A stretch of DNA of 64,000 bases from Naegleria gruberi (Eukaryota), in the NCBI GenBank assembly GCA_000004985.1, contig GG738871.1. One strand, written 5' to 3'. The position numbers were made by a program, and so were the translations under genes. Below are positions 30,410-64,000 of this stretch, one piece after another (the first letter of the stretch is position 1; every line of letters begins with the position of its first letter). The notes beneath the pieces were generated by a model. That model was not told the DNA's origin, made no database searches, and saw only the letters and a program-made list of their open reading frames with translations.

Positions 30410-33400
30410 ATGCGTGCTCTTCAAGTTTTGTTTTGCATAGCCTTGTTGATGGTGATGCTAGTAGATAATTCTTATTCCATTTACTCTAACTCTGCTTCTG
30501 TTTGTTCATGCTCTGGGAGTTGCCCATCCAGTTTTGGACAATTGACATATGATACTACCAATTCTGTGTTCTATACTAGAGGAGATACCAGTATTTATTC
30601 CTGCTCTAAAACACAAACCACAGGTAACAGTATTTCCAGTCTTGTTGGTAGTGTTCCATCGGTTGGTGATAATGTGGTTTTTACCACAGTACAAAGCAAA
30701 GGGGTTGTAATTTATGATCAATATAATGACGGGACAGAACAAGTTGTGACTTATTACATTGATGATACCTCCAGCGTAATCGATAATATTACCTTTACAC
30801 CTGGTGCAGTAAACCTCAAATCTGGAGATGGTAAGTTTTTTTAAAATGTTAATAACAATGTTGACATTTGACAATCAAAGTAATCTTGCTTTCCGATAGT
30901 ACCAACAATGAAATCAATTCTATTCAGATTGGAATTGGTACCCCAACCTTGTTATTTTCTGCCAATGCCCCTGTAAAGGATGTGGTTTTTTCTACAGATA
31001 TCTTGTTTGTAGGTCTGGAAAATCAAGTAGTTCTCTATAATCCTACTACTTTATTAAATATTGATACAACATTTTCAGGAGAAACTTTTGTTAGCATTCT
31101 TTATATGAGTGGTGTTGTGAATGATAAGGTATGTTTTGAAATGATGTGTTATTACAATAATGTATTAGATTTATCTTGTGGACAGTATCTCTGCTTCCAG
31201 TTTTGCAATTAGAAGAATATCTTTTTCTGGATCACATGAAACAGCAACTATTAAAACTATTTATACAACCACTTCTTCCATTAGTGGTATTTATGCAGTT
31301 AGTGATTCTGAAGTTTATTTCATAGAAGGCACGGAAATTAGAAAGTTACAATTCGATTGCACTGCCGGAGAAGTAGCACCAATTTGTGAAAATTGCCCAA
31401 CAGGCTACAGTTCTAGCTCACCTTTTGCAAGTTGTTTCCCTGTTTGCACAGGTGATTGTAATAATAATGGAGTATGTGTTGCTCCTGAGGTTTGCTCCTG
31501 TAATGCAGGTTTTAATGGAAGCAAGTGTGAAAACACAATTCCATTTTGTGGAGGTATTGCTGGAAACGAAACCAATGTTTGTAATAGTAGAGGTGTTTGT
31601 GTTTCCACTAATTTATGCGAATGTTATGACAGTAATAGTTATGGTGGAAACTTGTGCGAAACTGTAAAATGTTTTGGAAAGCTCAGTACAGATATTTTAT
31701 CTGTTTGCAGTGGTAATGGAACTTGTGATGCAGTTGACTTTTGTAATTGTGATGCTACTCACGGAGGAAGTAATTGTGATATTGTGAAATGTAATGGAAC
31801 CTTGGCAAATGAGACTTCAGTTTGTTATGGTCATGGTAAATGCATTAATGTAGATCTTTGTGACTGTAATTCAACTCACTGGGGTGGTGTATTTTGTGAA
31901 ACACCAAAATGTAATGGAATTCTAGCAACAGATACAAATGTTTGTAATTATCAAGGAGTTTGTTCAGGAGCTGACTTGTGTGCTTGTAATTCAACATATG
32001 GCGGTCAATTCTGTGAAATTCCAAAATGTAATGGAACAATGCAAGGTGATAATTCAGTTTGCTCAGGACATGGTTCATGTGTTGGTGTTGACCTTTGTAA
32101 TTGTAATTCAACTCACTGGGGAGGTAAATTCTGTGAAATTCCAAAATGTTTTGGAGTATTAGCCAATGAATCTAATGTTTGTTCAGGACATGGTTCGTGT
32201 ATTGGTGCTGATTTGTGTTCCTGTAATTCCACATATTGGGGAGACGAGAACTGTCAAACAGCAAAATGTAATGGTATTTTAGCAACAGATGCAAGTGCTT
32301 GTAATTATCAAGGAGTTTGTTCAGGAGCTGACTTGTGTGTTTGTAATTCAACATATGGCGGTCAATTTTGCCAAGTACCTAGATGCAATGGAACAATGCA
32401 AGGTGATAATTCAGTATGTTCAGGACATGGTTCTTGTGTTGGTGTTGACAAATGTAATTGTAATTCAACATCACTGGGGAGGTCAATTCTGTGAAATTCC
32501 AAAGTGTTTTGGAGTATTAGCCAATGAATCTAATGTTTGTTCAGGACATGGTTCGTGTATTGGTGCTGATTTGTGTTCCTGTAATTCCACATATTGGGGA
32601 GATGAAAATTGTCAAACAGCAAAATGTAATGGTATTTTAGCTACTCAAACAAATAGTGTTTGTTATGGACATGGTTCTTGTGTAGATGCCGATGTTTGTA
32701 ACTGTAATTCCACATATTGGGGTGGAGAATTCTGCAAATATCCAAAATGTTTTGGAATCTTATCCACAGAAGCAAATGCTTGTTCGGCACCAAACCAAGG
32801 TTTATGTGTTGATGCAGACACTTGTGCTTGTAACTCAACTTATTGGGGAGATGAAAAGTGCCAAACATTCAAGTGTAACAATATTCTTTCCACGTCAGAC
32901 TCTGTTTGTTATGGTCAAGGAGTGTGTGTAGCTGTAGATACTTGCGTTTGTAACTCAACATATGGAGGCCAATTTTGTCAAACACCAAAATGTAATGGTA
33001 CTTTGGCCGGGGATAACTTAGTATGTTCAGGACATGGTTCTTGTGATGGAGTTGACAAATGTAATTGTAATTCAACATATTGGGGAGGTCAATTCTGTGA
33101 AATTCCAAAATGTTTTGGAGTATTAGCCAATGAATCTAATGTTTGTTCAGGACATGGTTCATGTATTGGTGCTGATTTGTGTTCCTGTAATTCCACATAT
33201 TGGGGAGATGAAAATTGTCAAACAGCAAAATGTAATGGTATTCTGTCAACACAAACAAGTACTGTTTGCTACGGTCATGGTTCTTGTGTAGATGCCGATG
33301 TTTGTAATTGTAATTCCACATATTGGGGTGGAGAATTCTGCAAATATCCAAAATGTTTTGGAATCTTATCTACCGATTCTTCAACTTGTTCATTCCATGG

Positions 33401-36107
33401 CTTGTGTATTGATGCTGATTTGTGTTCATGTAACTCAACCCATTGGGGAGGTGAAAAGTGTGACATTCCAAAATGTAATGGAATTTTAGCAACAGATACA
33501 AATGTTTGTAATTATCAAGGAGTTTGTTCAGGAGCTGACTTGTGTGTTTGTAACTCAACATATGGAGGCCAATTTTGTCAAACACCAAAATGTAATGGTA
33601 CTTTAGCAGGTGATAGTTCAGTATGTTCAGGACATGGTTCATGTGACGGAGTTGACAAATGTACTTGCAACTCGACATATTGGGGAGGTCAATTCTGTCA
33701 AACTCCAAAATGTGATGGTATCTTAGCTTCCAATACTTCGACTTGTAATGGACAAGGTTCCTGTATCAATGCTGATGTTTGTATTTGTAATGATTACAAT
33801 CTTTGGGAAGGTAAATTCTGCCAAGTACCAATGTGTTACGGTAAACCACAAGGTGGATCTTCCACATGTAATAATGGAAATGGTACTTGTACATCTCCAA
33901 ATCACTGTTCCTGTAACTCTGGATATGTAGGCCCAGAATGTGAATATCCAGTTTGTTTCAATGTACCTAGCAATGACTCTTCAGTGTGTAACAATCGAAA
34001 CGGTACATGTATTTCACCTGATAAGTGTGCTTGTGAAAGTGGGTGGACTGGCGATAGTTGTCAAACACCAATCTGTTTCTCAATTTTGGGTAACTCTTCA
34101 GCTGTTTGTAGTCAAAGAGGTAGTTGTGTAGCTCCAAATTTTTGTGTTTGTAAGGATCATTATTATGGAGACGCATGTCAAAGAACTACTTGTTATGGTA
34201 TTGCTGATGATTCTAGTTCAACATGTTTTGGTCACGGTTCTTGTAGTGATTACAATACTTGTAATTGTTCATCAGGTTATGGTCCAGACAATTATTGTGA
34301 GCATCCAATATGTTATGGTTATTTAGCAAATGATACTAGAGTTTGTAACAATTCACGTGGTGTCTGTTTGAGTCCTGACGAATGTAGACCTTTGGACCCT
34401 GTATGTTTCGAAAAGGCAAAGAACGACAGTAATGTTTGCAGTGGTCATGGTAAATGTGTTGATTGGGATTATTGTGTTTGTAACACTTCAGATTATTATG
34501 GAGATCAATGTCAATATTGGAAATGTTTTACAAAGAATTACAACGCCTCAAATGTTTGTAATAACGGAAACGGTACCTGCTCATCTGTTAATAATTGTGT
34601 TTGCAACAGTGGATGGTATGGAAATGAATGTACAGTTCCAATGTGTAATGGAATTCTTGGTAATTCATCCCTCGTTTGTAACAATGGAAATGGTACCTGC
34701 TCCAAACCAGGTGCATGTCAATGTAATACTGGATATACAGGATCTGATTGTTCCATTCCAATTTGTTATGACAAATTAGCAAGTGACACAAGTAATGTTT
34801 GTTCAGGAAAGGGTTCTTGTGTTGCTAAGGATACTTGCTCTTGTCAAAACAAGTATACAGGTTATGAATGTCAATATGCCACATGTTATGGAGTTTCATC
34901 CAATTCTACAAGTGTCTGTAGTGGTAATGGTACATGTAACGGAGTTGATTCTTGTAATTGTTTATATGGTTATGGAGATTCTCAATGTAATGTTTTCAAA
35001 TGTTCCAATATTTTGGCTACTAGTAATAGCGTGTGTAGTGGAAGAGGTAAATGTTATGGAATTGATAAGTGTCAATGTGATACTGGTTACTATGGTCCTA
35101 ATTGTCAATATACCACTTGTAATGGTATTGCTGCTAACGACACTTCTGTATGTAATAGCAATGGTACCTGTACTGCTTATGAAACTTGTTCTTGCTCTGC
35201 TGATTGGTATGGCAAAAATTGTGACATTACTAAGTGTTACAATATCTTCTCAAATGATACAAGTGTTTGCAGTAGTAAGGGTAAATGTATCCTCAAGGAC
35301 AAGTGTGTCTGTACAGACATTAATTATGGTGGTTCTCAATGTGCCGATCCATACTGTTTTGGTTATTTGGCCGGAACTGTTGGAGTTTGTAGTGGAAATG
35401 GTCAATGTTTGGGAGTTAACTCTTGTAATTGTAATACTGGTTTCCTTGCCTCAAAGTGTCAATTCAAAACAATTAGTGGTATCTCTCTCACGTTCAATGC
35501 CTCTGCTGATTATGCCAATGAAACTCTCACCACCAAGGCAACTTTGTCAATTACTGACTCTTCATTCAGTACCTATTATGCTTCTACTAGCTTGAATGCT
35601 ACATTCTCATTTGTTTTCAATGGAGTTACATCAACATTCGACAAGATTCTCCCAGCCGGATCCAACAATGTTGAATTCATTCTTCCATTCTTCTACACTC
35701 AAAAAGGAACTGTTACCAGCTCTGTAACTCTCAAATTCACTGAAAGTACCACAACCATTACTGCAGGTCAAGCAACTGGTTCATCTTTAACCATTCAACA
35801 AAGAGTAATACCAACACCAACACCTACACCTATCAAATCATCACCAAAACCACAAGTTTCTCCAGCCAAATCCACCAACACTGTCAATCCAAAGGCCTCC
35901 ACTTCAACAACCACTAAGAGTGATTCCAATGTTGGAGGTGCCATTGCAGCTGGAGTCATTGTTCCATTAGTTGTAATTGGTGGAGGTGGTATCACTGCTG
36001 CCATCATTGCTGTTGTTGTCATTATGAAGAAGAAGGCCGCCACAGCAGCTGCCAGAGAACTTACCTATGCCACTCACTACGATGTTGAATTGGCTGAAGG
36101 TTACTGA
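30410..36107 (+). CDS. Giant type-I membrane glycoprotein. It has a signal peptide and N-terminal NHL/beta-propeller-like repeats. About 35 tandem cysteine-rich EGF/tenascin-like modules follow, then a Thr/Pro-rich stalk, a transmembrane helix and a short tail. Exons are 30410..30830 and 30881..31128, and a third runs from 31169 to 36107. One frame disruption lies near 32468.
   Basis: The signal peptide is MRALQVLFCIALLMVMLVDNSYS. Introns 30831..30880 and 31129..31168 are both GT-AG and frame-consistent. The repeating unit is PKCNGxLxxDxxVCxGHGxCxGxDxCxCNSTxWGGxFCE, six Cys per 39-40 aa. The C-terminus reads TPTPTPIKSSPKPQVSP..., then GGAIAAGVIVPLVVIGGGGITAAIIAVVVIM, then KKKAATAAARELTYATHYDVELAEGY. 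ORF 31178..32494 ends prematurely (..CNCNSTSLGRSIL*). The +1 frame (ORF 32289..36107) continues the same repeat consensus. Confidence 0.6.
31650..33720. repeat. Tandem array of units about 117-120 bp long, encoding 39-40-aa six-cysteine modules inside the surface-protein gene.
   Basis: Near-identical DNA units begin ccaaaatgtaatgg... or ccaaaatgttttgg... and recur with about 120-bp spacing, for example at 31901, 32021, 32141, 32261 and so on. The opposite-strand ORFs listed in this interval are antisense artefacts of the repeat. Confidence 0.7.
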
Positions 36108-36290
36108 TCGGATCTTTAGATTCCTTAATTCTGAAATAAAAAAATATTCTAACATTTCAAAAATATTGAATATTTGATAAACTGTGAACCTAAGAAATCT
36201 CAAATATGGCAATTAATTAAATTTCACCTTTTTAGTTTACTAATATTAAGACAATAAACGAAAACATTTAAAATAAATAATTGAATAAAA

Positions 36291-49070: not shown

Positions 49071-52000
49071 TTATTTGAGGATAGTGTTGAGTTGCTCAGC
49101 AAGCTTTGAAGGGAAAAATCTCTTTGGTATTTCCAAAGAGTTGATCTTACCATGACCATCAAGCATATCAAATTCAAAAACATTAGCTTGGAGTGGCTTC
49201 TTGGATCCTAAATCAGTGAAATAGTTAAAGTCAACTAGAGGTTTGGATAAAACATTGTCCAGTGTTGGAATCTTCTTGCCAATGAGTTCTTCAATTTCGC
49301 GTTGAGAGAAGGTGGTATTTGAATACTCATCTGTTTCATAATTAGAATAGATATAGGCAATTTGTTGGACTGAAAGTTCTGGACAAATCTCTTGTCTTGT
49401 ACCTTCATCTTCAAGCAATTGCTTTTGAGCAATAACACAAATATCAGCTGCTTGTCTAGAAAGTGTAAAGTAAACTTGCAACTTTTCTTCATCAAAGTCC
49501 TCATTGTCATGGAATTGTTTTCTCAAAGATTGAACAACATTCTTAGAGTTGAACCAATTTTCAAGGAAGGCAACACTCATCTTAACTGAAAGACCCTTGG
49601 AGGCAGAAGCATCCTTGATAAAGTGATTGAATATAATTGAATCCAAACACATGGCAACATTTTCAAAAATGTGATTAACAACACGTTTGTCCAGCTTTTG
49701 TTGTTCAACACGTTGGTAGATTTCAGTAAGAAGTGAAATACACAATCTCATATCTGGACCACCATCTGTTGATTTGGATGAAGCTTGTTTTGGATTGAAC
49801 ACCGCCTTCACTAATCTGTCCTTCAAAAATTGGACAATCTTGGAACAGAGATTGAGATAGGCTCTAGCAAGAATATCAGTAAGAGCATCAGTAAATTCTT
49901 GCATGTCGGCAACATAAACTTCATCATCCTCAAGTACAGAGTATACTGGTGGTTCGGCCAAAATACGTTCTTCTTCCTTTGCCAAAATTGCTTGAACAGT
50001 GACACCTTCCATTGTTTCGAATGAGTGATGAACTTGATTTTCGTTTCCACTTGATTGATAGAGGTTCAAAAGTCTGTATAATACATTAACCCAATACATC
50101 ATCATCTCCTCATCTCTGGCATATCTATCTACAACGTAGGACAGAGCCTTGATAATATTTGTACAGAAGAATTTACTCGATTCTGGAGAGAACTTTAGAG
50201 TTGAGAGGAATAAAACCTTGGTTGGAGTTGGAACTTTAGAGCTTCCCAAATAGTCACTAGGTTGACTGTAGATGATTGCAGATTCAATAATGAACTTCTC
50301 TACATCAGAATTTTGCAATGATGATATTTGCTCTTTCAATTTCTTGGTTTCTTGTTCATTACCTGTCTTTGACTGTTTAAAATAATAATAATAAAAATAT
50401 TGGTTAGTAAGTTGAATAAAAATAAATAGAAAAGTGATAATTTGTTATCAGTTAGTTTTTAAGTTAGAAAAGTGTGAGTGTAAGTGTAAAAGTTAGAAAT
50501 GATATTTGCCTTTTGGTTTTCATCAAATTGTTTTTGAACTTTTTCAAGTCTTCTCTTGTCTTGCTCCAATTCATCAATTTGTTCTTCCAATTCGGTTATT
50601 CTGTTCTTTCCCTTCTTTAATTTGTTTTCCAATTCCGAGAATTTATCATCCATGTCCATAACTTTTTGGTTTAATTCCTCATTTTCTTCCTTCAACTTTT
50701 CAATTTCCTCCTCAAGTGCAAACTTTGACTTTTTATCCTCATTAACAGAATTCTATAATAATTAATAAGTTAGTACATAAAAATTCAAATTAAATAAAAA
50801 AACATAGTGAGAATTGTGGGTGATGTGTTAGTGTAAAAGTGTGTGTGATATTTGCCTTTTGTTGTTGTTCAATTTCTTCAATTCTTTCCTCAAGTTCTCT
50901 GATCAAAGTATCCTTCTCCTTGAGCTCATCTTCAGTATTCTTACTCTTTTCACTACTACCCTTCTTCAATTTTGCAATTTGATTACCAAGCTCATCAACT
51001 TCTTCTTGAAGTTGATTACGTTCTTTTTCTATCTTGGACAATTTAGAATCAACACTGTCTAGATCTTGTTCCAACTCTTCAATCTTTGAATCCTTTTGGC
51101 TATTGTCATCTTCCAACACTTGAAGTTGTCCAGAAAGCTTCTTGCATTCCATGGCTTGCTTTTTAGAATCTTCTTCAGCCTTTGCGACTTGTTGTCTGAG
51201 AGTTTCAAGTTCCTCAACCTTTGAATCAATAAGTTCATTCAATTTTATCACTTGGGTTTCACTCTCTGTAAGCTTCTTTTCTGTATCACCTAGTTTCTTT
51301 TCCGTTTCTCCAAGCTTCTTTTCGAGAGTTGTTTTTTGCTTCTTGACAATATCATCCATGGAAGCAGAATTCTTTGACAAACTTTCAATTTCTAAAATTT
51401 TTTCAGATAGGTCTTTTTCCTTTTCTTTGATCTTTTCTTCCAATTGCTGATTCTTGCTCTTGATAGTGGTAATCTCAATATCTAGATTCTTTCTCTCTTC
51501 TCTTAATGATTCGACAAGTTTGTTCAAATCCACTTCAGTTGACTATTTAAAGGTCATATGATATAAATTGTTAGTATGTTGTTTAAAATAAATGTGAAAA
51601 AAAAATGTGACATCACAGTTAGTACAAGTTAGTTCGCACCCAATAAAAAATCTAGCCTTTGGCTTTCATTCTTAAAGGGACAAATTGTTAGTTCTGGTTA
51701 GATACTTAAAGTTTTTGAAAAATATCCCGCACTCTTTGCAGAGATTGAGTGTGTAGTGTAAGATATGTACCTTTAGTTTTCTTGCCTCGGAATTAATATC
51801 AGAAACCTCATTAAATGTTTCTAAAACAGTAGAGAAGTGGCGACTAGCTTCTTGTTTCAGTTCCCCAATCGTGTTTTTCAAATGTGTAATTTCCTCAAGC
51901 AACAATTCTTCCACTTGCTTGCTAGCTTCTTTCAATTTCTTGCATTCTTCTTTCAAGTCTTCAACTTGTTGTTTGTAGCTCTCAATATCCTTATCTTTTT

Positions 52001-54957
52001 CTTCGCAGCTCTTCTCTATTTGTTTGGTTTCACTAATAGCAGCTTCTAGCTCTGAGGTAACATCTTCTACCTTCTTCTTATAAGATTCAAGGGATTGGTT
52101 GAGGTTCTCTAACTCTTGAGTAAGGTTTCTGTTCTTCTCTTCAACTTTTGAACATTTTTCTTGGTATTCTGAAAGCTTGTTTTCGATTTGAATAACAACT
52201 TCGTCAGTGTGTTGAGATGATTGCTTCTTGACATCTTCCACTCTTTCTTTAAGTTCAGAAATTTCTTTTTGGAGAGAATCTTGCATTTCTGCCTTGCTCT
52301 TTTCTGAGGATTGCCATTTTTGGGTGGCCTTTTCAACATCTTGTGAGTGTGCATTCTTTTCCTTCTTTAATTCATCCTTAAGACGTTCAACCTCATCAGT
52401 AACCTTCTTCAAATCTAATGCGAGTGCTTCCTTTCCTGATTTCAGCATTGACATCTTTGTTGAATATTCATTATCCTTGGAGAGGTATTCCTGTTTGAGG
52501 TTTTCCATTTGTTTCTTGAGAGATTCCTTTTCCTTGGTAGCAGCTTCCTCTTGTTTGTTGCGAGTTTCTATGGATTGTGTCAATTGAATGTTCAAAGCTG
52601 ATATCTTGGATGCCAAGTCATCTCTTTCCTTCTTGATATCTTGTAAATTTCTTTCCAATGATTCATTCTTTTCCTGTATCATAGTATTGGTATTTTGAAT
52701 TTGTACAATATTGGAGGTTAATACTTCGGATACAGCAGAAATCTCTTCCTTAACTTCATTTTCTAATGTTTGCTTAGCCTTCATAATACTCTCATCAGAA
52801 ATACCGTTTCTCATATTTTCAACAATATCAGAAAATGAGTCAGAGTGAGTAAGAATGCTTGAAAGCTCATCACTATTACCCAATTGGGTTGCTGTTTGAA
52901 GAAGGGTGTTTTGAATCTTAGTCTTGAGTGTTCTAAACTCCAAAAGACAAGAAAGAAGTAGCTCTCTATGCTTAGTTGCAGAAGATATTTCCTTACTTTG
53001 TTGAGAAACCAATTCAGCCAAACCCTTTCTTTCTTCCTTCAATCTATTAATGTCTGTTTCAAGTTCTTCAATTTCTACCTTTCTCTTTGTCTCTTTGGAA
53101 CTAAATTCTTTCTTTAGCTGATCAATCTCATTTTCATAACGAGTTTTGCTTTCTGACAAGTCTTTTTCATTGGTTACCTTAAATATATGAAGTTAGGAAT
53201 TATTCTATATCTCAATTATAAAAATGAACTTAACAGGGTGAGACTCTTTTCAGTTAGTTAGGTGTGAGTGTAATTAGTGTCAAGTGTACGTGTCGTGTGG
53301 GTTGATGTTTATACTTTACCTTTTGTGATTTCATATCTTCTTGAAGTTTTTCATTTTCTCTCTTCATTTTATCCATTTGCTTCTTGTCTGCAATGAGTTG
53401 TTCCTCATATTCCTTAGCTTGTTCTCTCATATTCTTGATTTCTTCTTCCAAATTTTGAACCTTTTCGTCATATTCGTATGAGAGGGATTGTTTTTGCTTT
53501 GAAGATGATGCACGACCATTTTCATTTTCTTCTTCAAGGTCCTTGATTCTATCCTTCAACTTTTTAATTTCTGTTTCATTCTTTTGAGCTTGCTTTTGCT
53601 TTAATTGAAGTTCAAAGAGCTTGCTATCAACTTCTTGTTGAGATTCCTGAGCCTTGTCTCTTTGTTTTATCAAATCTTCATTTTCTCTTTGGAGATTTTT
53701 AAGTTTTTCAACAGCTGAATCTCTTTCTTTTTGAACCTTTTTAAGCTATTAAATGTCAATATTCTCAATCTTTGTACACCAACTTACCAAATTAGTCTTG
53801 TCATTTTCTTTGAGAGTCTTGACTTGTTTCAAGAGCAATTTTACCTTTCTCTTGAGGTGATTAATTTGTCTTTCAAATTCAGCAGTATCTACATGTGATG
53901 AAACTTGAGCAGATTCATCAGTTTCAGTGTGCTGATTATTTTCTTCATCCTCATCTTCGGTTCCCTTTTCAACTTGTTCATCCTCTTCTTCTGGTTCTTC
54001 ATCGTGGTGTTCCTCAGGATGTTCTTCTTCGTCCTTTATTTGCTCTTCGATATCTCTTTCAATATCCTCTTCATTTACTTCAACTTCAGGTTCATGATGA
54101 TCCTCTTCGTCATAATTATGTTCCTCATGATCATTATAGTCGTGCTCTTCGTGTTCTTCCTCATCCTTATCCTCACCAATATCCTACAAATTGATTGTTA
54201 ACAATTACTACAATAATTAAACATACTTGATTTGTTCCTTCATCTTCATCGACTTCATCATTACCTCCAGTATAAGTACTAACAGCAGTAAAATCATCAT
54301 CACTTAATTTTGTTACAATCATACAAGTTCTAGTAGAATACTTACTTTGGATTTTGATCCTTTAAACATTTAGAATTGATAACAAGTTTCAATTTGGCCT
54401 TGCTACTATCCTTTGTTGGCATGTCTATTTCCTTTGTGGATGTCTTTTCAGAATCTTCATCTACAAACAATGCCAAATCCAAAGTTTCCTTCACAAGTGT
54501 ATTTGTTTTTCCATTCTTTCCTTTCTCTTCCAATGTGATTTGAAGATCTTTCTTTTGGAATTTACCCTTTTTAAAATAGAGAGTTCCATTGAATTTAAAT
54601 GTTCTATTCCAAATAATACGGGTACCTTCAATCTTGTTAAATTCGGTTTCACCCTTTCTCTTTTTTCCTCTTTTCCAAAATATCTATTATTGTGATTGTA
54701 TCATAAAACGTTGATGATATTATAATGATGATGACAGCGTTGTTGATGTTTGATAAGGAATTTAATGATGATGGGTATTATCATAGTGATGATATTTAAA
54801 TATTATGATGAAAATAATAAACATACAGCATAGGTACATTCATCCTTCTTCTTTTCCTTCACTTCGGTCAAGTGATCAATAGAAAGGTTAAATTGAAACT
54901 TGAAAGCCTCCCTATTCGTAACCTGTTGGGCTACTTTGCTTTGTAACTTTTTAAACA
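49071..54957 (-). CDS. Very large multi-exon gene. It encodes an NT-C2 domain, a poly-acidic region, a coiled coil of about 1,100 aa and a C-terminal DIL (dilute/myosin-V-tail-like) domain. At least nine introns.
   Basis: The start MFKKLQSKVAQQVTNREAFKFQFNLSIDHLTEV... and the next exon IFWKRGKKRKGETEFNKIEGTRIIWNRTFKFNGTLYFKK... fit the EHBP1/EEIG1-type N-terminal C2 pattern. An acidic exon follows (DIGEDKDEEEHEEHDYNDHEEH...). Four long coiled-coil ORF blocks come next: 53254..53673, 51672..53159, 50790..51533 and 50459..50695. The last ORF, 49071..50339, has DIL-domain character. Individual intron borders are only partly resolved. Confidence 0.5.
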
Positions 54958-55357: not shown

Positions 55358-57070
55358 TTATTTTTCAACTAATGGTATTAAGAAATGGTTTGGTATTTTA
55401 CAATCGAAATAGGTTTCAGTCATTCTGATTTTTCTGAGTTTTTCAAACTTTTCTCGTTTAGGAAAAAAGCAAAATCCGTTCTGTTTAGCAGCAATTTCGC
55501 TTATTGTTTCATCTTTACGATGCAATGGAGCATGATATAATAAAAATCCATTCTTTTTAACCAATTCCATTACAATATTTCGATTTTTTAAAATTAAAAA
55601 ATTCATTTCTTCTCTTCCAATTTTCACATTTGGATTACGGACTTTCCATAGCCTTTCGTCATTGGTCAACCTATCTGAAGCTCCAAAAAAAGACCCTTTA
55701 TATTTGACTGCTGCCTCAACAACCTCAATATCGTTCTTTAGTTCGCTTGCCTCAATAAGAACACTTTTTAAAATTGAATCATTTTTCAATAATCGAATAA
55801 TGAATTGCTTGTCTCTCTTCAGAGTTGGATCTAAGAGTCTCATAAAATTCTGACAATTATTGTTATTTTCCAAAAGGGATTCAATAAATTCTTTGTCATG
55901 TTGTAACTCATTAGAGGCAAATAGGAAAGCCTTACACTCTTTCTTTACAGCATGTGTTACGATAGATTTGTCATTAATCAACACATCAGATGCAGCTTCC
56001 AAAGCTGAAGGAAAATTTGATATGGCTTCCCATACAATTTCATAATCATTTCTGTAAATATAGGGACAATAACAAAGCACGCCCCCTGATTTTCTCACAG
56101 TTTGCAAAACCAAATCTCTGTCAATACTATCCTCTTTCATCTTTGGAAAAATATACTCTATTCCATTGACGGCCAATTGTAACATCTCTCTAACAAATAG
56201 ATCATCATTCTTTAACTCTTCAGATGCATACATCATTGCACTTCCATGGATTAATATTGATCTTTTTACAATTTCTCTATGATTTCGGAATTCAGGTTTG
56301 ATAAATTCAATAATATTTGCAAATAAAGAACATTCCAAAATAAAGTCAACATCTTGCTTCAGATCATCGGTTGCATATTTAAATTGATATCGATTTTTTT
56401 TCACACAATTCAAAACCAATTCTCTATTGGATTTTAGCTCATCAGGGAATGATTCTAGACATGAGAAATGTTTCAAAATTTCAATGTCATTATGAAATTC
56501 TTTGGGTAAAAGGTGTTTTAGATCGGTCGAATTCATTCTTGCTATCATCTCTTTATGCGTGAAAAACAATCTATCACTTGCCAATTCATCTAAATAGGGT
56601 AGTAATGTCTCTCCGATTTTTACTTGGTAAGGCTCAATATTAGAAAGGACGAATTCTCTATTATTTCTCAATTCTTTTGACGCAAATTGAAACATGTTTG
56701 GAAAAATCATACAACAATCTTTCACAATTTGTGGATTGTTTTTAACATGAAAAGGTGAATCTTCACATAGCTGAAAATAATATTCCAATCTGAGGTTATA
56801 TTCTAAATACCAATAAAAAAACTTTTGTGCTATTGGATTTTTCTTGCCATTAGAAATTACAAACTCAAAAACTTCTTTATCATCAGTAAATTCGAGAGGC
56901 AAAAATTTGAATCTGTCTGGGTTCTCAAAATGTAAACGTCTGTTTTCGAGATAAAGAAGAAATCCTTTTTGTTGAGTTTGAAATTTTCGGATTAAAAGTT
57001 TGACTTGATGAGAAATGCAATGATCAAAATCTATCAGATAGAGAGTGGTGTGATGTGTGCTTCCAGACAT
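55358..57070 (-). CDS. DUF4116 repeat protein (570 aa).
   Basis: Units about 35 aa long of the form ELKNDxEfVlxAVKxNGxxLxYASxEL recur, for example ELRNNREFVLSNI, ELKSNRELVLNCVKKN, FRNHREIVKRSILIHGSAMMYASEELKNDDLFVREML and ELKNDIEVVEAAVKYKG. This is characteristic of the DUF4116 family. Confidence 0.55.
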   Translation of the reverse strand: MSGSTHHTTLYLIDFDHCISHQVKLLIRKFQTQQKGFLLYLENRRLHFENPDRFKFLPLEFTDDKEVFEFVISNGKKNPIAQKFFYWYLEYNLRLEYYFQLCEDSPFHVKNNPQIVKDCCMIFPNMFQFASKELRNNREFVLSNIEPYQVKIGETLLPYLDELASDRLFFTHKEMIARMNSTDLKHLLPKEFHNDIEILKHFSCLESFPDELKSNRELVLNCVKKNRYQFKYATDDLKQDVDFILECSLFANIIEFIKPEFRNHREIVKRSILIHGSAMMYASEELKNDDLFVREMLQLAVNGIEYIFPKMKEDSIDRDLVLQTVRKSGGVLCYCPYIYRNDYEIVWEAISNFPSALEAASDVLINDKSIVTHAVKKECKAFLFASNELQHDKEFIESLLENNNNCQNFMRLLDPTLKRDKQFIIRLLKNDSILKSVLIEASELKNDIEVVEAAVKYKGSFFGASDRLTNDERLWKVRNPNVKIGREEMNFLILKNRNIVMELVKKNGFLLYHAPLHRKDETISEIAAKQNGFCFFPKREKFEKLRKIRMTETYFDCKIPNHFLIPLVEK

Positions 57071-57183
57071 TTTTTAGTGGTTGACTGTTCAGTTCGTGAA
57101 AGTTAAGTAACCTCCATTTACAGAGTATTATTCTAAACAAGATATTCAATAAATATTCACATCAAAAGTTACATTGTTGATAA

Positions 57184-58807: not shown

Positions 58808-59638
58808 TATTTCTTCTCAATTTTGTTGTTGTTGTTGTGGTGGAATTTGTTGTGGTTGTATTGCTGTTGGCTAAGAAGAGAAAAAAATTCGTGATAATGA
58901 TGACTACAGCAACCTCTTGATGGTGATCAAAGAACTAATTCAAGCAAAGAAGAAGTAGTGAAGAAAAATAGTAGTACTGCTCGGATGGAGAGAATGATGT
59001 GTTTCTGATTATCTCTATGGTGAGAATTTTTTTGATTTAAAGAAGAGACTTGATCTTTGTCAACTATCATCGGTTACATTCCGTTCTTTCCTTTCTATTG
59101 GTTGGCATTACGTTTTATTTTACTCTCAATTAATATTACAAATTTTAAATTTAATTATCATGTGATGAAATTTTCAGTGCATACAATCATGGTTGCATTT
59201 GGATTGATTTCAAGTCATTACGGTATTTAAAGCCTTAAATTTGAAAAATCGAAAAGTCCATGCAAGGTTTTAATGCTGAACTTGGAGGTTGCCATCTTTG
59301 AAGAAAAGTTGGAGAGACACTTTCACTTACAGCACTTTAATGATAAGACAATGTTTTGTAACAGCACTATATCAAGCCAAACAGGTAATAATGTCTATTT
59401 GGAATTGATTTTGTTGCATTTTACCGTTGACAGTTAGTTGATTGAATTTTGCATTGTTGTGTTCTTTGAACAAAACACCGTTCCCATCAATCACTTAATA
59501 GTACCAAAATTGACATTGATTTCACGATTGTGGAGCTACTAAGGTTTGACATGACGAGGGAATTGAACAGTTACCCGAACAGCATACAATTTCAGTGTCT
59601 GGCTTTTAACAAACACAAAAAACAAAAATCAAAAAAAC
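58808..59638. promoter_or_regulatory. Long divergent intergenic region between the MAP2K gene (minus strand) and the second cysteine-rich surface protein gene (plus strand).
   Basis: An 830-bp non-coding spacer between two start codons. No verified elements. Confidence 0.25.
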
Positions 59639-62600
59639 ATGGTTACTGGAGGCAATCTTTCAGTATCTTGCTTTAAACAAGATGTAAAATCAGTTAGAGG
59701 CCTCATTGTCCTTCTCTTGTTGATTCTCTGTTTGACAACAATTGAGAAATGTTGTGGATATTACTACACAATGAATACTGTTGGTACCTTCACTTCTGGA
59801 ACCACCTTGTATCAAATGGACAAGTCCAAATTCTTCGCTAACAGATTCTACGTAGCAACAAGTGGAGGTCTTCAGTATTTCACTGTATCAAGTGGTGTGG
59901 CAAATCCAAGTAATTCTTATGTGTATAGTGGTGGGTTTCAAACTACCAGTATGGCAAATGTTGTTGTCAGAAGTACATCATCAAGTAAAGATGATGTTTT
60001 TTCTGGTACCATTAACACCTCCACTTGGAGGTATGGTTCAATAGCCAGTTCAACCACTACTGGTAATTCACTCACCAGTTGTGGCGTTATTGTTGCTGGT
60101 GTAAAACTCGATGCAAGCTCTACAACTTTTTCTGTGATTGGCAATGGTGTTGTGGGTACATTAACAATGACAACAGGTGGTAGTGCATCTTGTTCTGCAG
60201 TTACCTCATTTACAGGAGTTTCTGGCACAAGTACCACGCCATCTACTGATGGCACAGGTAGCGCAGCTACTGTTTACTCTAGTGGTACTCATGACATTAC
60301 CAAAAATTCAACATCTGGTGTAAGTATGAGAAAATTCAATTAATTAGATCTAACAACTGGCAGGTTTATTATTTTACTGAGGATTCAAAGATTAGAAAGG
60401 TTGTTTCAACTACTATCACAACTCTGGTAGGAGGAACTACTGGTACAGTGACAGATGGTACTCTCTCCTCTGCTACAGTTAAAAATCCAAGTTTCATGTC
60501 CATCTTGGGTGCAGGTGTAAGTTTTATTGCATTGTTATGATATATTAAACTGTTAACAGCTTGTATTTTCGGATACTGGTAGTAATAGAATTAGAGTTTT
60601 GGATACAGCCAATGAAGAAGTTGTTACTATTGCTGGTGGTGGCTCAACTACCCCATCAGGTACTGCTTCACTATCTGGTGCAGCAACAGGTTTTTCTTTA
60701 ACTAGCCCAAGAGGCATTTATGTGGACACTGATGACAGTATTTATTTTGTTGAAGGAATTTATGTTAGAAAGCTTGTCTATTCTTGTGAAGCAAATGAAA
60801 TTTATCAAGCAGGCTCATTCCCACCATGTGCTTGTAATACTACTGCTGGTTATGTGAGATCTGGAACTTCTTGCGTACCTACCTGTTCCAATTGTAATGT
60901 CAATCAAACATGTACTGGTCCAGAAACTTGTTCTTGTAAGAGTGGATATTCAGGAACAGATTGTTCTGCTTTTACCTGTTTTGGTGTAGCTCAAGATTCT
61001 ACATCTGTTTGTAATTCTAAAGGATATTGTGTTGCACCTGACACGTGTATATGTAGTGATACCTCCACTTTCTTTGGGTCAAATTGTAATGTGACTTATT
61101 GTAATTCTATTCCATCAACGAGTGGTAGTGTTTGTTCAGGACATGGAAGTTGTACTGATTATAATACTTGTACTTGTAGTGATACCAATTCATGGACAGG
61201 ATCTGATTGTGGAACACCTGTATGTGCAGTTGTGAGTGGAGGTGTTTGTTCTGGAAGAGGTAGTTGTACAGCTCCAAATATTTGCACTTGTAATGAACCA
61301 TCAAAATATGGTGGATCTTCATGTGAAATTCCAAAATGTAATGGAACACTTCAAGGCAATTCTGGTGTTTGCAATGGAAGAGGTTCTTGTATTGATGTTG
61401 ATACTTGTCAATGCACTGTTCCAACCTCTTGGGGTGGTTCATTCTGTGAAAAACCATACTGCTCTGGAATTTTACAAGGTGCAGCTGGTGTTTGTTCAAA
61501 TAGAGGAGTTTGTTCATCTCCTGATTCTTGTGTTTGTAATGAACAAACAAAGTATGGTGGTTCAAATTGTCAACTTGTCAAATGTGGAGGTTATTTGGAA
61601 ACAGACTCTGCTGTTTGTAACAAGAATGGTTCATGTATTGCTGTTGATACTTGTTCCTGTAATTCAAATTATGGTGGTTCAGATTGTCAATATCCAAAGT
61701 GTAATGGCATTGCTTCGAATAGTGGTAGTGTTTGTAATTCACAAGGATCATGTGTTGCACCAAATGTTTGTGTCTGTAATTCAAATTATGCTGGACCATT
61801 ATGCGAATATCCAAAATGTAATGGCGTAGCTTCCAATGATGCAAGTGTTTGCAATTCGAATGGAACTTGTACTGGTGTTAATACTTGTGTTTGTAATGTT
61901 AACTATACAGGATCATATTGTCAATATCCAAAATGTAATGGAATATCTTCCAATGATGCAAGTGTTTGTAATAACAAAGGTGGTAATTGTATTGCACCAA
62001 ATGTTTGTTCATGTAATTCAAGTTATACTGGTCAATTCTGTCAATTCCCAAAGTGTAATGGTATTGGATCCAATGATGCAAGTGTTTGTAATGCAAATGG
62101 TACTTGTATTGGAATTAATGTTTGTTCATGCAATTCAAATTATGCTGGTCCATATTGTCAATATCCAAAATGTAATGGTATTGCTTCAAATAGTGGTAGT
62201 GTTTGTAATTCACAAGGATCATGTGTTGCACCAAATGTTTGCGCCTGTAATTCAAATTATGCTGGTACATATTGTGATAAACCAAGATGTGGAACCTTTT
62301 ATAAGGGAGATGCTTCTGTTTGTAATTCGAGAGGTAGTTGTGATGCTGTTGATAGTTGTACTTGTAGTGATACATCTTCTTGGGGTGGTAATTTGTGTCA
62401 ATATCCAAAATGTAATGGTGTTCTTTCAAATATTGGAACTGTTTGTAGCAGTAGAGGTACTTGTCAATCTCCAAACAATTGTTCATGCACTGATCCAAAT
62501 TCATATGGTGGTTCATATTGTGAAAAAGCAAAATGTTATGGAATTCTTCAAGGAGATTCAAATGTTTGCAGTGGACATGGTACTTGTAGTGGTGTGAATC

Positions 62601-64000
62601 AATGTTCATGCAGTGCTGGATATGGAGGTGAACAATGTCAATATCCAAAATGTTTCAATATTTTGAGTAATGAAACAACAGTTTGTAACAATAGAAACGG
62701 TACTTGTACTGCACCTGACACTTGTTCATGTAATAATGGATGGACTGGAAGCAAGTGTGATGTTGCCATTTGTTTTTCAATTCTCTCCAATTCAACAAGT
62801 GTTTGTTCAAACAAGAGAGGTAATTGTGTCACACCAGATAATTGTGTTTGTAAAAGTCAATATTCAGGTTCTCAATGTGAATATACCACTTGTTCTGGAA
62901 TAAGATCAGATCAACATCGACAGTATGTTATGGAAATGGTCAATGTATTGATTATTTACTTGTAATTGTACAACTGGTTATGGACCATCCAATGTATGTC
63001 AATATCCAATTTGTGGTGGTTATTTAGCAAATGATACCAGAGTTTGTAACAATTCAAGAGGTGTTTGTTCCAAACCAAATACATGTAGACCATTAGATCC
63101 CGTATGTTATGGTAAAGCTCAGAATAATTCAATGGTTTGCAGTGGAAATGGAGCATGTGTTGATTGGGATTATTGTGAATGTAAAACTGGTTTCAATGGA
63201 AATGAATGTCAAAATTGGGAATGTTATGGAAAGAATTATACCAACTCAAATGTTTGTAACAATAGAAATGGTACCTGTTCATCTGTGAATAATTGTGTTT
63301 GCAACAGTGGATGGTATGGAAATGAATGTACAGTTCCAATGTGTAATGGAATTCTTGCTAATTCATCTCTCATTTGTAACAATAGAAATGGTACCTGCTC
63401 CAAACCAGGTGCATGTCAATGTAATACTGGATACACAGGACCTGATTGCTCCATTCCAATTTGTTATGGAAAATTAGGCAAGTGACACAAGTAATGTTTG
63501 TTCAGGAAGAGCAGAATGTATTGGTTATAACAAGTGTAATTGTGACACTTCCAAGTATAGTGGTTCACAATGTGAATATTTCAAATGTTTTGGTATTCCA
63601 TCAAATGATGCTTCAGTTTGCAGCAGAAACGGAACATGCTCTGGAGTGAATCAATGTTCTTGTAATTATGGTTATGGTTCTTCAAATTGTGACATTTTCA
63701 CATGTTCAAACGTTCTTGCCACCGATTCGAGTGTTTGCACTGGAAAGGGTGTATGTTATGGAATTGACAAGTGTTCATGTGATTCAGGATATTTTGGATC
63801 AAATTGTGAAATTATCTCCTGTTATGGAATTCCAAAGTCCAACAATACTGTATGTGGAGGAGTTGGTGAATGTTCACAACTTGATACATGTGTTTGTGGA
63901 AGCAATTATAGAGGATCAATGTGTGAATTATCTTACACCTCTTCATCTCAAGCAACACTTCAATTCAATAATACGAATGAATATGTGAATGAACAATTCA
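59639..64000 (+). CDS. Paralogue of the 30410..36107 cysteine-rich surface protein: signal peptide, NHL-like N-terminal repeats and EGF/tenascin-like modules. Exons are 59639..60319 and 60364..60516, and a third runs from 60560 to beyond the window end. The frame is disrupted at least three times between 62880 and 63490. It is 3'-partial. It may be a decaying paralogue, or the disruptions may be sequence errors.
   Basis: Introns 60320..60363 and 60517..60559 (GTAAGT...AG) are frame-consistent. The product carries ...LYFSDTGSNRIRVLDTANEE...IYFVEGIYVRKLVYSC... and about 20 six-Cys modules. DNA from 62990 onward is nearly identical to 34290 onward of the first gene. Relative to that paralogue it has single-base indels near 62925, 62950 and 63478, each followed by a stop in the main frame. 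Confidence 0.45.
61290..62660. repeat. Tandem array of units about 120 bp long, encoding six-cysteine modules in the second surface-protein gene.
   Basis: Units beginning ccaaaatgtaatgg... or ccaaagtgtaatgg... recur at about 120-bp spacing. The antisense ORFs here are artefacts. Confidence 0.65.

What the first reader, a model, noticed from the sequence alone, without database searches (positions are those of the whole stretch)
30410..64000. Two paralogous giant cysteine-rich surface-protein genes about 23 kb apart with the same domain order
The genes at 30410..36107 and from 59639 to beyond the window end share a signal peptide and NHL-like N-terminal repeats (..YFIEGTEIRKL.. / ..YFVEGIYVRKL..). 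They share a long run of 39-40-aa six-Cys modules (CNGT..C.GHG.C...D.C.CNST.WGG..C). Their C-terminal unique segments are near-identical over hundreds of bp. For example 34290-34480 and 62990-63180 differ by only a few percent at DNA level. The first gene ends in a Thr/Pro stalk and a transmembrane helix, so these are probably highly glycosylated surface antigens or adhesins. The very high DNA identity in the 3' part suggests recent duplication or gene conversion.
Basis: seen in the sequence. Interest (0 to 1): 0.5.

Follow-up and report, generated by a model that had tools for sequence, protein, structure and literature searches.

The report
Paralogous Naegleria EGF-repeat surface-protein genes
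Two old, linked copies of a giant EGF-repeat membrane-protein gene in the amoeba Naegleria gruberi share a short stretch recently copied from one to the other, and both carry frameshifts and have no gene model in the public annotation; this is an ordinary multigene-family pattern.

Summary
The window is the Naegleria gruberi NEG-M reference scaffold: five ORFs match RefSeq proteins exactly. There are two paralogous genes, at 30410-36107 and from 59639 past the window end. Both run signal peptide, N-terminal domain, array of 39-40-aa six-Cys EGF modules (34 and at least 26). Gene 1 continues with an Ig-like domain, a Ser/Thr/Pro linker, a TM helix and a conserved tail.

- Its example (34290-34480 vs 62990-63180) is 74% identical, not near-identical.
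- The real near-identical tract is 34572-34809 = 63270-63508, at 95% over 239 nt.
- That tract sits in a collinear block of about 1.3 kb that is 73% identical. Synonymous divergence (dS) is about 1.0 in the flanks and 0.18 in the tract.
- Outside the tract the two genes are as far apart (55% aa) as each is from N. lovaniensis homologues.

So this is an old duplication with a short ectopic gene-conversion patch, not a recent duplication.

Only the last nine or so EGF modules pair one to one. The central arrays expanded independently. NHL similarity is weak for gene 2 and undetectable for gene 1.

Neither gene is intact as assembled: gene 1 has one frameshift and gene 2 has three. Neither has a protein model in public sets. 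A surface adhesin or receptor role is inferred from architecture only.

The parts
30410..30830 (+). Gene 1 exon 1. Codons 1-23 (30410-30478) are the signal peptide MRALQVLFCIALLMVMLVDNSYS; the N-terminal domain begins here.
   Evidence: ORF and translation. Hydrophobic 19-mers at residues 1-24. The exon ends at a GTAAGT donor at 30831.
30831..30880 (+). Gene 1 intron 1 (50 nt, GTAAGT...AAAG, phase 1)
   Evidence: Removing it joins the 30410 frame to the 30868-31212 frame with no stop codon.
30881..31128 (+). Gene 1 exon 2 (N-terminal domain)
31129..31168 (+). Gene 1 intron 2 (40 nt, GTATGT...TTAG, phase 0). It sits just before the blade-like motif IYLVDS.
   Evidence: Same position and phase as gene 2 intron 2 and as intron 2 of the N. 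lovaniensis P0003 gene model.
31169..36107 (+). Gene 1 exon 3: end of the N-domain, the EGF array, the juxtamembrane domain, linker, TM helix, tail and stop codon. The frame is broken once, at 32470.
   Evidence: ORFs 31178-32494 and 32289-36107 overlap in different frames. Deleting base 32470 gives one 1868-aa conceptual protein with no internal stop.
32470..32470 (+). Gene 1 frameshift: an extra A (AATTCAAC-A-TCACTGGGG) compared with the sister copy of the 357-bp repeat at about 32113.
   Evidence: Alignment of the two repeat copies, 92% identical with this single indel. As assembled, translation stops at 32494 after 664 aa.
31433..35459 (+). Gene 1 EGF array: 33 canonical six-Cys modules plus one degenerate module (CYGYLANDTRVC...CRPLDPV)
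   Evidence: Regex segmentation. Pfam EGF_2 6e-52, EGF_TEN 8e-51 and EGF_Teneurin 2e-36. Closest solved-structure sequences are the EGF repeats of WIF-1, Delta-like and HHIP.
31790..33821 (+). Gene 1 central array, built from recently duplicated multi-module units
   Evidence: TRF: 357-bp unit, 2.1 copies, 92% matches; 120-bp period, 15.6 copies. Self-blastn: 1.29 kb at 79% with offset 594, and 567 nt at 85% with offset 354.
33834..35459 (+). Gene 1 conserved C-terminal EGF block (aa 1112-1653). Its first part is collinear with gene 2.
   Evidence: Five-protein alignment, collinear DNA alignment, module reciprocal best hits, coordinates.
34572..34809 (+). Gene-conversion tract, gene 1 copy (two EGF modules)
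   Evidence: 227/239 = 95.0% identical to 63270-63508, against 74% and 64% in the 300-nt flanks. No codon shuffle out of 10000 reached the observed segment score. dS is 0.18 in the tract and 0.99 in the flanks.
35460..35795 (+). Juxtamembrane domain of about 112 aa, predicted to be an Ig-like beta-sandwich
35796..35924 (+). Ser/Thr/Pro-rich linker (…PTPTPTPIKSSPKPQVSPAKSTNT…TSTTTKSD)
   Evidence: Translation
35925..36029 (+). Single transmembrane segment (GGAIAAGVIVPLVVIGGGGITAAIIAVVVIM)
   Evidence: Kyte-Doolittle 19-mer maximum of 2.65 at aa 1809-1843, the only such segment besides the leader. Conserved in relatives.
36030..36107 (+). Short cytoplasmic tail KKAATAAARELTYATHYDVELAEGY plus the stop codon. 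The family motif is KKKAAxxxA[KR]EIxxAxHxDVELxEG[FY].
   Evidence: Alignments and hits P0123, P0125 and P0127.
59639..60319 (+). Gene 2 exon 1: leader with a hydrophobic core at aa 15-41, and the N-terminal domain
60320..60363 (+). Gene 2 intron 1 (44 nt, GTAAGT...GGCAG, phase 0)
   Evidence: Same position, within one alignment column, as intron 1 of the P0003 gene.
60364..60516 (+). Gene 2 exon 2 (NHL-like blade VYYFTEDSKIRKV…)
60517..60559 (+). Gene 2 intron 2 (43 nt, GTAAGT...AACAG, phase 0), just before LVFSDTGSNRIRVLD
60560..64000 (+). Gene 2 exon 3. It holds the last NHL-like blades (BLASTP-similar stretch aa 190-350, which starts in exon 1 and spans exon 2), 25 canonical modules plus 1 degenerate EGF module (60872-63924), and the first 25 residues of the juxtamembrane domain. 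It runs off the window.
   Evidence: BLASTP of aa 190-350 to genuine NHL-repeat proteins gives E 1e-12 to 1e-5. TEN_NHL scores 25.0 bits, below the 27.1 cut-off.
62894..62925 (+). Gene 2 frame disruption 1 (net -1), in the C1-C2 loop of module 18. The exact base cannot be placed.
   Evidence: Three-frame translation and alignment to gene 1. As assembled, the ORF stops at 62965 after 1079 aa.
62954..62955 (+). Gene 2 frame disruption 2: 1 nt is missing between GATTA and TTTACTTGTAAT, compared with gene 1's GATTACAATACTTGTAAT.
63477..63477 (+). Gene 2 frame disruption 3: an extra G (AAATTAGGCAAG against gene 1's AAATTAGCAAG), inside the conversion tract and 31 nt from its 3' end.
62534..63924 (+). 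Gene 2 conserved C-terminal EGF block, collinear with gene 1 from 33834 to about 35220
63270..63508 (+). Gene-conversion tract, gene 2 copy

Best explanation
These are two anciently diverged, linked paralogues in the Naegleria gruberi nuclear genome. They lie on the same strand with starts 29 kb apart, separated by 23.5 kb of unrelated genes. They belong to a heterolobosean family of giant type I membrane glycoproteins.

The inferred protein has these parts, in order:
- a cleaved signal peptide;
- a divergent, NHL-propeller-related head of about 300-340 aa;
- a long rod of teneurin/tenascin-type EGF modules;
- one Ig-like juxtamembrane domain;
- a mucin-like Ser/Thr/Pro linker;
- one TM helix;
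- a short, conserved cytoplasmic tail (KKKAA…EI…DVELxEGF).

From the architecture, the likely role is a cell-surface adhesion or recognition receptor. The head would bind a ligand, the EGF rod would hold it far from the membrane, and the tail would couple to sorting or the cortex.

The genes evolve in three ways:
1. unequal crossing-over amplifies modules independently within each central array;
2. purifying selection acts on the module-for-module conserved C-terminal block;
3. occasional short ectopic gene conversion occurs between paralogues. One tract of about 240 nt (34572-34809 / 63270-63508) was homogenised after N. gruberi split from its nearest sampled relative.

In the reference assembly both genes are frameshifted (gene 1 once, gene 2 three times), and neither has a protein model. 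These may be very recent inactivating mutations or consensus errors. That could not be decided here.

What is shown: paralogy, gene structure, domain content, the old divergence, the conversion tract, and the frameshifts as assembled. What is inferred: surface location, glycosylation and adhesive or receptor function.
For: Organism:
- Five window ORFs equal N. gruberi NEG-M RefSeq proteins on a 417,575-bp scaffold.

Gene models:
- GT..AG introns of 40-50 nt restore the frames.
- Two intron positions are shared with the N. lovaniensis P0003 gene.

Domains:
- Pfam EGF_2, EGF_TEN and EGF_Teneurin score far above their cut-offs.
- There are 34 and at least 26 modules.
- There is one TM helix and a leader.
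- The tail and juxtamembrane domain are conserved in 7 relatives.

Old paralogy:
- Protein identity outside the patch is 55%, against 50-55% to N. lovaniensis P0002 and P0003.
- dS in the flanks is 0.99, with dN/dS 0.34.
- Gene 1 and P0002 both have three modules after the CSNILAT module; gene 2 and P0003 both have one.

Conversion:
- A 238-nt segment is 95.4% identical against a 70% background. No codon shuffle out of 10000 reached it.
- dS in the tract is 0.18.
- The same two modules are only 52-62% identical in every other pairing.
- Within the tract, dS for gene 1 vs gene 2 (0.19) is lower than dS of either gene vs the metagenomic relative L003 (0.48-0.50).

Independent array growth.

Selection on the part of gene 1 downstream of its frameshift:
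- dN/dS is 0.17 against L003.
- The ORF is 1272 aa, whereas shuffled sequence gives a maximum of 161.

No annotated model: the best hit to either gene in 5.8 billion proteins is at most 49% identical.
Against: - No expression, proteomic or localisation data were found for this family in Naegleria. The only nearby item is an unrelated-by-evidence 'EGF-like domain-containing protein' in N. fowleri secretion products.
- As assembled, neither gene can make the full-length membrane protein. The products would be 664 and 1079 aa and would lack the TM helix.
- The NHL nature of the head is weak for gene 2 and undetectable for gene 1. AlphaFold2 on the head failed, with pLDDT 35.
- The N. lovaniensis loci of P0002 and P0003 are not syntenic with the window within ±10 kb. 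Orthology assignments therefore rest on architecture only.
- Gene 2's 3' end lies outside the window, so its TM helix and tail were not seen.
Confidence: 0.8

Rival explanations
1. Recent segmental or tandem duplication. On this view the two genes are young copies and the near-identical stretch is what remains of their original identity.
For: The genes are on the same strand and scaffold with the same coarse architecture. There is a 95%-identical tract.
Against: Flanks on both sides of the tract are 64-74% identical, with dS of about 1. Protein distance between the two genes equals their distance to N. lovaniensis homologues. They differ in terminal module number, each matching a different N. 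lovaniensis protein. No flanking DNA is shared, and the intervening 23.5 kb holds unrelated genes.
Confidence: 0.03
2. The 239-nt tract is conserved by exceptionally strong selection on those two EGF modules, for example as a ligand-binding site, and not by gene conversion.
For: Within the tract dN is low, at 0.03-0.04.
Against: Synonymous sites are also nearly identical: dS is 0.18 in the tract and 0.99 in the flanks. The same modules are no better conserved than the rest in gene 1 vs P0002, gene 2 vs P0003 or P0002 vs P0003 (52-62%). The tract is more alike within N. gruberi than to the relative L003.
Confidence: 0.04
3. Both loci are true, very recently inactivated pseudogenes, or one null allele captured in the consensus. 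The frameshifts are real.
For: Four frame disruptions lie in coding sequence that is otherwise collinear with intact homologues. The assembly is the Sanger-based reference. Neither locus has a protein model. One indel is not in a homopolymer.
Against: There is not a single in-frame stop in more than 3.6 kb downstream of the gene 1 frameshift, nor in the corrected gene 2 segments. About 8.5% of random substitutions would create a stop. dN/dS is 0.10-0.24 against relatives. Three of the four disruptions cluster within 580 nt, which also fits a low-quality patch of the assembly.
Confidence: 0.5
4. The truncated, TM-less products (664 and 1079 aa) are the functional forms: secreted EGF-array proteins. 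The downstream parts would be relics.
For: Both truncated forms keep the signal peptide, head and part of the array. An EGF-like protein has been seen in N. fowleri secretions.
Against: The downstream parts are stop-free and under purifying selection. Homologues are full-length with a TM helix.
Confidence: 0.05

Closest known systems
Naegleria lovaniensis C9374_014632 (P0002, 1879 aa, 'EGF-like domain-containing protein', uncharacterised)
   Same: It is 49% identical over 95% of the gene 1 1272-aa ORF. The conserved C-terminal EGF block is the same, including the degenerate CRPxDP module and three modules after the CSNILAT-type module. The Ig-like juxtamembrane domain, TM helix and KKKA…DVELxxG tail are also shared.
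   Different: Its head is about 650 aa of canonical NHL repeats (PF01436, PF25021). Gene 1 has a 290-aa head with no detectable NHL match. The locus is not syntenic within 10 kb.
Naegleria lovaniensis C9374_011222 (P0003, 1239 aa, uncharacterised) and its metagenomic relative P0124
   Same: The head is 37% identical to gene 2 over 200 aa. The junction motif is the same (IYFxEGxYxxKL … SFPPC). Two intron positions are shared. There is one module after the CSNILAT-type module. The tail family is the same.
   Different: The EGF array is much shorter. There is an extra intron inside the EGF block. The neighbours differ (P450 and a 2-oxoacid dehydrogenase E2).
NAEGRDRAFT_49505 (P0005, 1105 aa), an annotated third paralogue on the same N. 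gruberi scaffold but outside the window, and NAEGRDRAFT_70644 (P0126)
   Same: Head, EGF array, conserved C-terminal block, Ig-like domain and TM helix follow the same order.
   Different: Identity is 35-43%. P0005 lacks two modules of the block and has no cytoplasmic tail motif.
Animal teneurins (and tenascin-type EGF arrays)
   Same: The EGF modules score best with Pfam's teneurin EGF models. Relatives combine them with teneurin-type NHL blades.
   Different: Teneurins are type II proteins with 8 EGFs followed by an NHL propeller, a YD shell and a toxin-like domain. Here the topology is type I, the head is N-terminal, there are 26-34 EGFs, and no YD or Tox-GHH match was found. The resemblance is shared modules, not family membership.
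Interlocus (ectopic) gene conversion in multigene families (general phenomenon, from established knowledge)
   Same: A short tract of a few hundred nt of near-identity sits inside old, diverged paralogues on one chromosome.
   Different: There is nothing unusual in the tract length. The direction of transfer could not be determined.

Membership tests
EGF-like domain arrays (Pfam EGF_2 PF07974 / EGF_TEN PF25024 / EGF_Teneurin PF23106) | Profile match above the curated gathering score | tested here: met
   Gene 1 scores 174, 173 and 124 bits against cut-offs of 22, 65 and 24. Gene 2 scores 174, 120 and 99 bits.
EGF-like domain arrays | Six cysteines per module with a C-x-C near the end, repeated head to tail | tested here: met
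   33 and 25 matches to C-x6-13-C-x4-7-C-x4-7-C-x-C-x6-12-C, with a period of 39-40 aa.
NHL-repeat beta-propeller (PF01436 / TEN_NHL PF25021) | Profile match above the gathering score in the N-terminal domain | tested here: not met
   Gene 2 scores 25.0 bits on TEN_NHL, below the 27.1 cut-off (E 1e-5). Gene 1 has no hit even at E <= 10.
NHL-repeat beta-propeller | Pairwise similarity to proteins with genuine NHL repeats | tested here: inconclusive
   Gene 2 aa 190-350 hits the NHL regions of P0033, P0070, P0009 and P0002 at E 1e-12 to 1e-5. Gene 1 matches only P0003, at E 1e-3 to 3e-4, 23-26% identity.
NHL-repeat beta-propeller | Six-bladed propeller fold | tested here: inconclusive
   The AlphaFold2 model of the gene 2 head from a 3-sequence alignment had pLDDT 34.8 and was unusable.
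Teneurin family | Type II topology with an N-terminal cytoplasmic domain | tested here: not met
   There is an N-terminal signal peptide, a single C-terminal TM helix and a 25-aa tail, which is type I topology.
Teneurin family | YD-repeat shell and C-terminal toxin-like domain | tested here: not met
   No such Pfam families were found in either gene or in the closest homologues' precomputed domain lists.
Heterolobosean EGF-array proteins with the KKKAA…DVELxEGF tail (unnamed, uncharacterised) | Ig-like juxtamembrane domain + TM helix GGAIAAGVxVPLV + tail KKKAAxxxA[KR]EIxxAxHxDVEL | tested here: met
   Gene 1 matches P0123 at 8e-66, P0124 at 5e-24, P0002 at 1e-15, P0125 at 1e-14 and P0127 at 2e-7. 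Alignment.
Heterolobosean EGF-array proteins with the KKKAA…DVELxEGF tail | The same C-terminal signature in gene 2 | not testable with these tools
   Gene 2 leaves the window 25 residues into the juxtamembrane domain. The rest of the scaffold could not be fetched.
Processed or decayed pseudogene | Frame disruptions plus relaxed constraint (dN/dS near 1, stop codons) | tested here: inconclusive
   Frameshifts are present. There are no stops in the corrected frames, and dN/dS is 0.1-0.34.

The most novel reading that the evidence does not exclude
The linked family members (gene 1, gene 2, and NAEGRDRAFT_49505 on the same scaffold) might form a diversification system. In it, frameshifted copies would serve as sequence donors, and short ectopic conversions plus module shuffling would generate variant surface receptors in a free-living amoeba. 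This would be loosely analogous to pseudogene-templated surface variation in parasites.

Two observations hint at it. The metagenomic relative L003 is itself a gene 2-like / gene 1-like mosaic. Its switch point coincides with the 3' end of the N. gruberi tract.
Probability: 0.05. Interest if true: 0.6.

Novelty: new member of a known kind. Interest (0 to 1): 0.25.

Why it matters
The practical gain is modest. Two large genes (about 5.7 kb and at least 4.4 kb) of the N. gruberi reference genome appear to have no protein model. They should be annotated either as genes, after the four indels are checked, or as pseudogenes.

They also define a Naegleria-lineage family of giant EGF-rod membrane proteins with a conserved Ig-like domain, TM helix and tail. 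These are candidate adhesion or recognition receptors in a group where surface receptors are poorly known, and which includes the pathogen N. fowleri.

The clean conversion tract is a small documented case of ectopic recombination in Naegleria. It bears on how its multigene families evolve. None of this is surprising to a specialist.

Tried and rejected
- Fetching the rest of the scaffold through exact protein look-ups of NAEGRDRAFT_68205 and NAEGRDRAFT_49505 failed: neither is on record. The gene 2 3' end and the position of the third paralogue therefore stay unknown.
- Synteny with N. lovaniensis: no window ORF other than the two genes hits L001 or L002. L004 is syntenic with L002 and not with the window.
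- AlphaFold2 on the N-terminal head gave pLDDT 34.8, so no fold search was run on it.
- I scanned the metagenome for an indel-free or indel-bearing copy of the gene 1 frameshift site and found 0 matches.
- I scanned the metagenome for relatives of the C-terminal domain. There were 447 pattern hits, none confirmed.
- tRNA and Rfam scans of the window found nothing.
- Literature searches for Naegleria with EGF, NHL or cysteine-rich surface proteins found no characterisation of this family.
- I considered treating the frame changes inside the EGF arrays as introns and rejected it. Homology to gene 1 or to the sister repeat runs straight through each site, so splicing would delete essential module residues.
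- I considered a mis-assembly chimera for the tract and rejected it. The two copies differ at 11 scattered positions and are not identical.
- The 'observed' value printed was read in the wrong frame. The valid observed figure is the 1272-aa ORF.

Full report
**Source of the window.** Five ORFs of the window are residue-for-residue identical to RefSeq proteins of Naegleria gruberi strain NEG-M. All five lie on one 417,575-bp scaffold. They are NAEGRDRAFT_68205 at 55358-57070(-), and NAEGRDRAFT_49477, 68183, 79943 and the 'mitochondrial RNA ligase' at 2.2-15 kb. The window is therefore nuclear DNA of a free-living heterolobosean amoeba, with GC of about 34%. Tools built for bacteria had to be read with introns in mind.

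**Gene structures.**
- Gene 1 (30410-36107, +) and gene 2 (59639 to beyond 64000, +) are each split over several ORFs.
- The breaks in the N-terminal part are short canonical introns: gene 1 at 30831-30880 and 31129-31168, gene 2 at 60320-60363 and 60517-60559. Each runs from GTAAGT or GTATGT to AG, and removing it joins the frames without stops.
- Gene 1 intron 2, gene 2 intron 2 and intron 2 of the N. lovaniensis P0003 gene sit at the same place and phase, just before an 'LVxSD' blade motif. Gene 2 intron 1 matches P0003 intron 1.
- The breaks inside the EGF arrays are not introns.
  - Gene 1 has one extra A at 32470 compared with the sister copy of its own 357-bp repeat.
  - Gene 2 has a net -1 shift in 62894-62925, a missing base at 62954/62955 and an extra G at 63477. 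In each case homology to gene 1 runs straight through the site.
- After correction the conceptual proteins are 1868 aa (gene 1) and at least 1425 aa (gene 2, cut by the window end), with no internal stop.
- As assembled, translation would stop after 664 and 1079 aa, before any TM helix.

**Domain content.**
- Both genes start with a hydrophobic leader.
- The heads, of about 290 and 340 aa, are poorly conserved. They align significantly only over their last 55-60 residues (38% identity, E 8e-9).
- Gene 2 residues 190-350 resemble genuine NHL repeats of other heterolobosean proteins (E 1e-12 to 1e-5). They miss Pfam's TEN_NHL threshold, at 25.0 against 27.1 bits.
- Gene 1's head has no detectable NHL signal. 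AlphaFold2 on the head was uninformative, with pLDDT 35.
- The arrays hold 34 modules (gene 1) and at least 26 (gene 2). Each is a six-Cys EGF module of 39-40 aa, scoring far above Pfam thresholds for EGF_2, EGF_TEN and EGF_Teneurin. The nearest solved relatives by sequence are generic EGF repeats of WIF-1, Delta-like and HHIP.
- After the array, gene 1 has four further parts:
  - a Ser/Thr/Pro linker;
  - one TM helix;
  - a 25-aa tail.
- The juxtamembrane domain, TM helix and tail form a conserved signature: GGAIAAGVxVPLV…KKKAAxxxA[KR]EIxxAxHxDVELxEG[FY]. Two N. lovaniensis proteins and several metagenomic Naegleria-like fragments share it. A further N. gruberi protein, NAEGRDRAFT_70644, shares it only in part: the TM helix and KKKAA but not the rest of the tail.
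- The conceptual gene 1 has 51 NxS/T sequons and 11% Cys.

**How alike are the two genes?**
- blastn and a local alignment give one collinear diagonal, 33875-35153 against 62572-63855, at 74% identity.
- At module level, gene 2 modules 16-24 are reciprocal best hits of gene 1 modules 22-30, in order. Upstream modules have no one-to-one partners.
- Each central array is made of its own recently duplicated multi-module units. In gene 1 there is a 357-bp unit at 92% and 1.29 kb at 79% with offset 594. In gene 2 there are 117- and 234-bp units at 76-88%.
- The real near-identical stretch is 34572-34809 = 63270-63508: 227 of 239 columns, with 11 scattered mismatches and one indel.

**Age of the duplication and nature of the tract.**
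- In a five-protein alignment of the C-terminal block, gene 1 and gene 2 are 55% identical outside the tract. That is the same as either gene against N. lovaniensis P0002 or P0003 (50-55%).
- Within the two modules of the tract they are 91% identical, while all other pairs are 52-62%.
- Nei-Gojobori estimates give dS 0.99 and dN 0.34 in the flanks, against dS 0.18 and dN 0.03 in the tract.
- The best-scoring high-identity segment is 238 nt at 95.4%, on a 70% background. No codon shuffle out of 10000 reached it: the observed score was 49 and the maximum shuffle score was 19.5.
- Gene 1 and P0002 share three modules after the 'CSNILAT' module. Gene 2 and P0003 share one.
- The pair is therefore old, most likely older than the N. 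gruberi / N. lovaniensis split. The tract is a short ectopic gene conversion.
- Selection on the protein cannot explain the silent-site identity. A mis-assembly chimera would be identical, not 95% identical.
- No other DNA is shared between the two loci or their flanks. The 23.5 kb between them holds unrelated genes: an amine oxidase-like gene, a ZIP transporter, a calpain, a DIL-domain/coiled-coil gene, a DUF4116 protein and a kinase.

**An outside witness.**
- An ENA metagenome contig (L003, 1767 nt) encodes, in one uninterrupted frame, a relative of the gene 1 3' end. It is 78% identical in protein over the tail region, with dS 0.87 and dN/dS 0.17.
- This shows that the part of gene 1 downstream of its frameshift has been under purifying selection for most of its history.
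- The 1272-aa stop-free ORF also cannot be chance. Shuffles give a maximum of 161 aa, and 8.5% of random substitutions would create a stop.
- Within the tract, L003 is equally far from both N. gruberi genes (dS 0.48-0.50). The two genes differ from each other by dS 0.19, so the conversion happened after that lineage split.
- Oddly, the first 180 nt or so of L003 are closer to gene 2 (80-93%) than to gene 1 (63-79%). The switch to gene 1-like sequence falls where the N. gruberi tract ends. That suggests repeated exchange at this spot. I did not resolve it.

**Annotation status.**
- Searching 5.8 billion proteins with the gene 1 1272-aa ORF gave no hit above 49% identity. The best hit was N. lovaniensis C9374_014632.
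- The 20 N. gruberi proteins among the top 120 hits are all at most 43% identical.
- A chimeric query made of both heads found no N. gruberi protein at all.
- Exact look-ups of the first exons also failed.
- Both genes therefore lack protein models in the public sets, plausibly because of the frameshifts. Whether these are real mutations or consensus errors could not be tested.

**Function.** Nothing experimental was found for this family. The architecture is leader, propeller-related head, long disulphide-rich rod, Ig-like domain, mucin-like linker, TM helix and short conserved tail. That is the architecture of a cell-surface adhesion or recognition receptor. The same EGF modules occur in Naegleria proteins fused to kinase, RGS, GPS and REJ domains, which fits a sensing or adhesion role at the surface. 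This is inference only.

**Verdict.** The finding is an ordinary case of multigene-family evolution in a protist. Its small added value is two apparently unannotated, frameshifted large genes and a cleanly delimited conversion tract.

Noticed in passing
window 32470; 62894-62925; 62954-62955; 63477: All four frame disruptions lie in coding sequence that is otherwise stop-free and under purifying selection. Three of them cluster within 580 nt of gene 2, next to or inside the conversion tract. They could be real recent mutations, a null allele, or a low-quality patch of the reference.
   Followed up: partly
window 30410-36107 and 59639-64000: Neither gene has a protein model in RefSeq, UniProt or EukProt for N. 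gruberi, although neighbouring ORFs do.
   Followed up: yes
L003:1-1767 (ENA ERZ27245887 k141_1425925) vs window 34380-36102 and 63074-63508: The metagenomic relative is a mosaic. Its first 180 nt or so are gene 2-like (80-93% nt) and the rest is gene 1-like (73-83%). The switch falls at the same junction as the 3' end of the N. gruberi conversion tract. This may be a recurrent exchange point.
   Followed up: partly
outside the window, same 417,575-bp scaffold: A third, annotated family member, NAEGRDRAFT_49505 (P0005, 1105 aa), lies on the same scaffold. It has the conserved C-terminal block minus two modules and no cytoplasmic tail motif. Its distance from the pair is unknown.
   Followed up: partly
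window 36030-36104 and relatives P0002, P0003, P0123-P0127: The short cytoplasmic tail is strikingly conserved: MKKKAAxxxA[KR]EIxxAxHxDVELxEG[FY]. It is better conserved than most of the ectodomain, which suggests a sorting or docking motif.
   Followed up: no
window 31400-35600 and 61100-63700, both strands: There are many long off-frame and antisense ORFs, for example 34783-35595 (270 aa) and 62115-62648(-) (177 aa). They are by-products of the periodic TGT/AAT-rich codon pattern of the EGF arrays and are not genes.
   Followed up: partly
window 13848-14990 (+): This ORF is identical to the N. gruberi protein annotated 'mitochondrial RNA ligase' (XP_002676530.1).
   Followed up: no
window 49071-53159 (-): Three same-strand ORFs probably form one intron-split gene. 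The first and third carry DIL-domain and coiled-coil matches; the middle ORF (50790-51533) was not scanned. The region has a strong AT skew (-0.20 to -0.32) and several 21-bp tandem repeats.
   Followed up: no
L004:6022-10077 (ENA ERZ2098899 NODE_365): A low-coverage metagenome contig is syntenic with the N. lovaniensis P0003 locus (P450, 2-oxoacid dehydrogenase E2, then the EGF gene). The EGF gene is broken into many small called ORFs there. The likely causes are introns or low-coverage errors.
   Followed up: no
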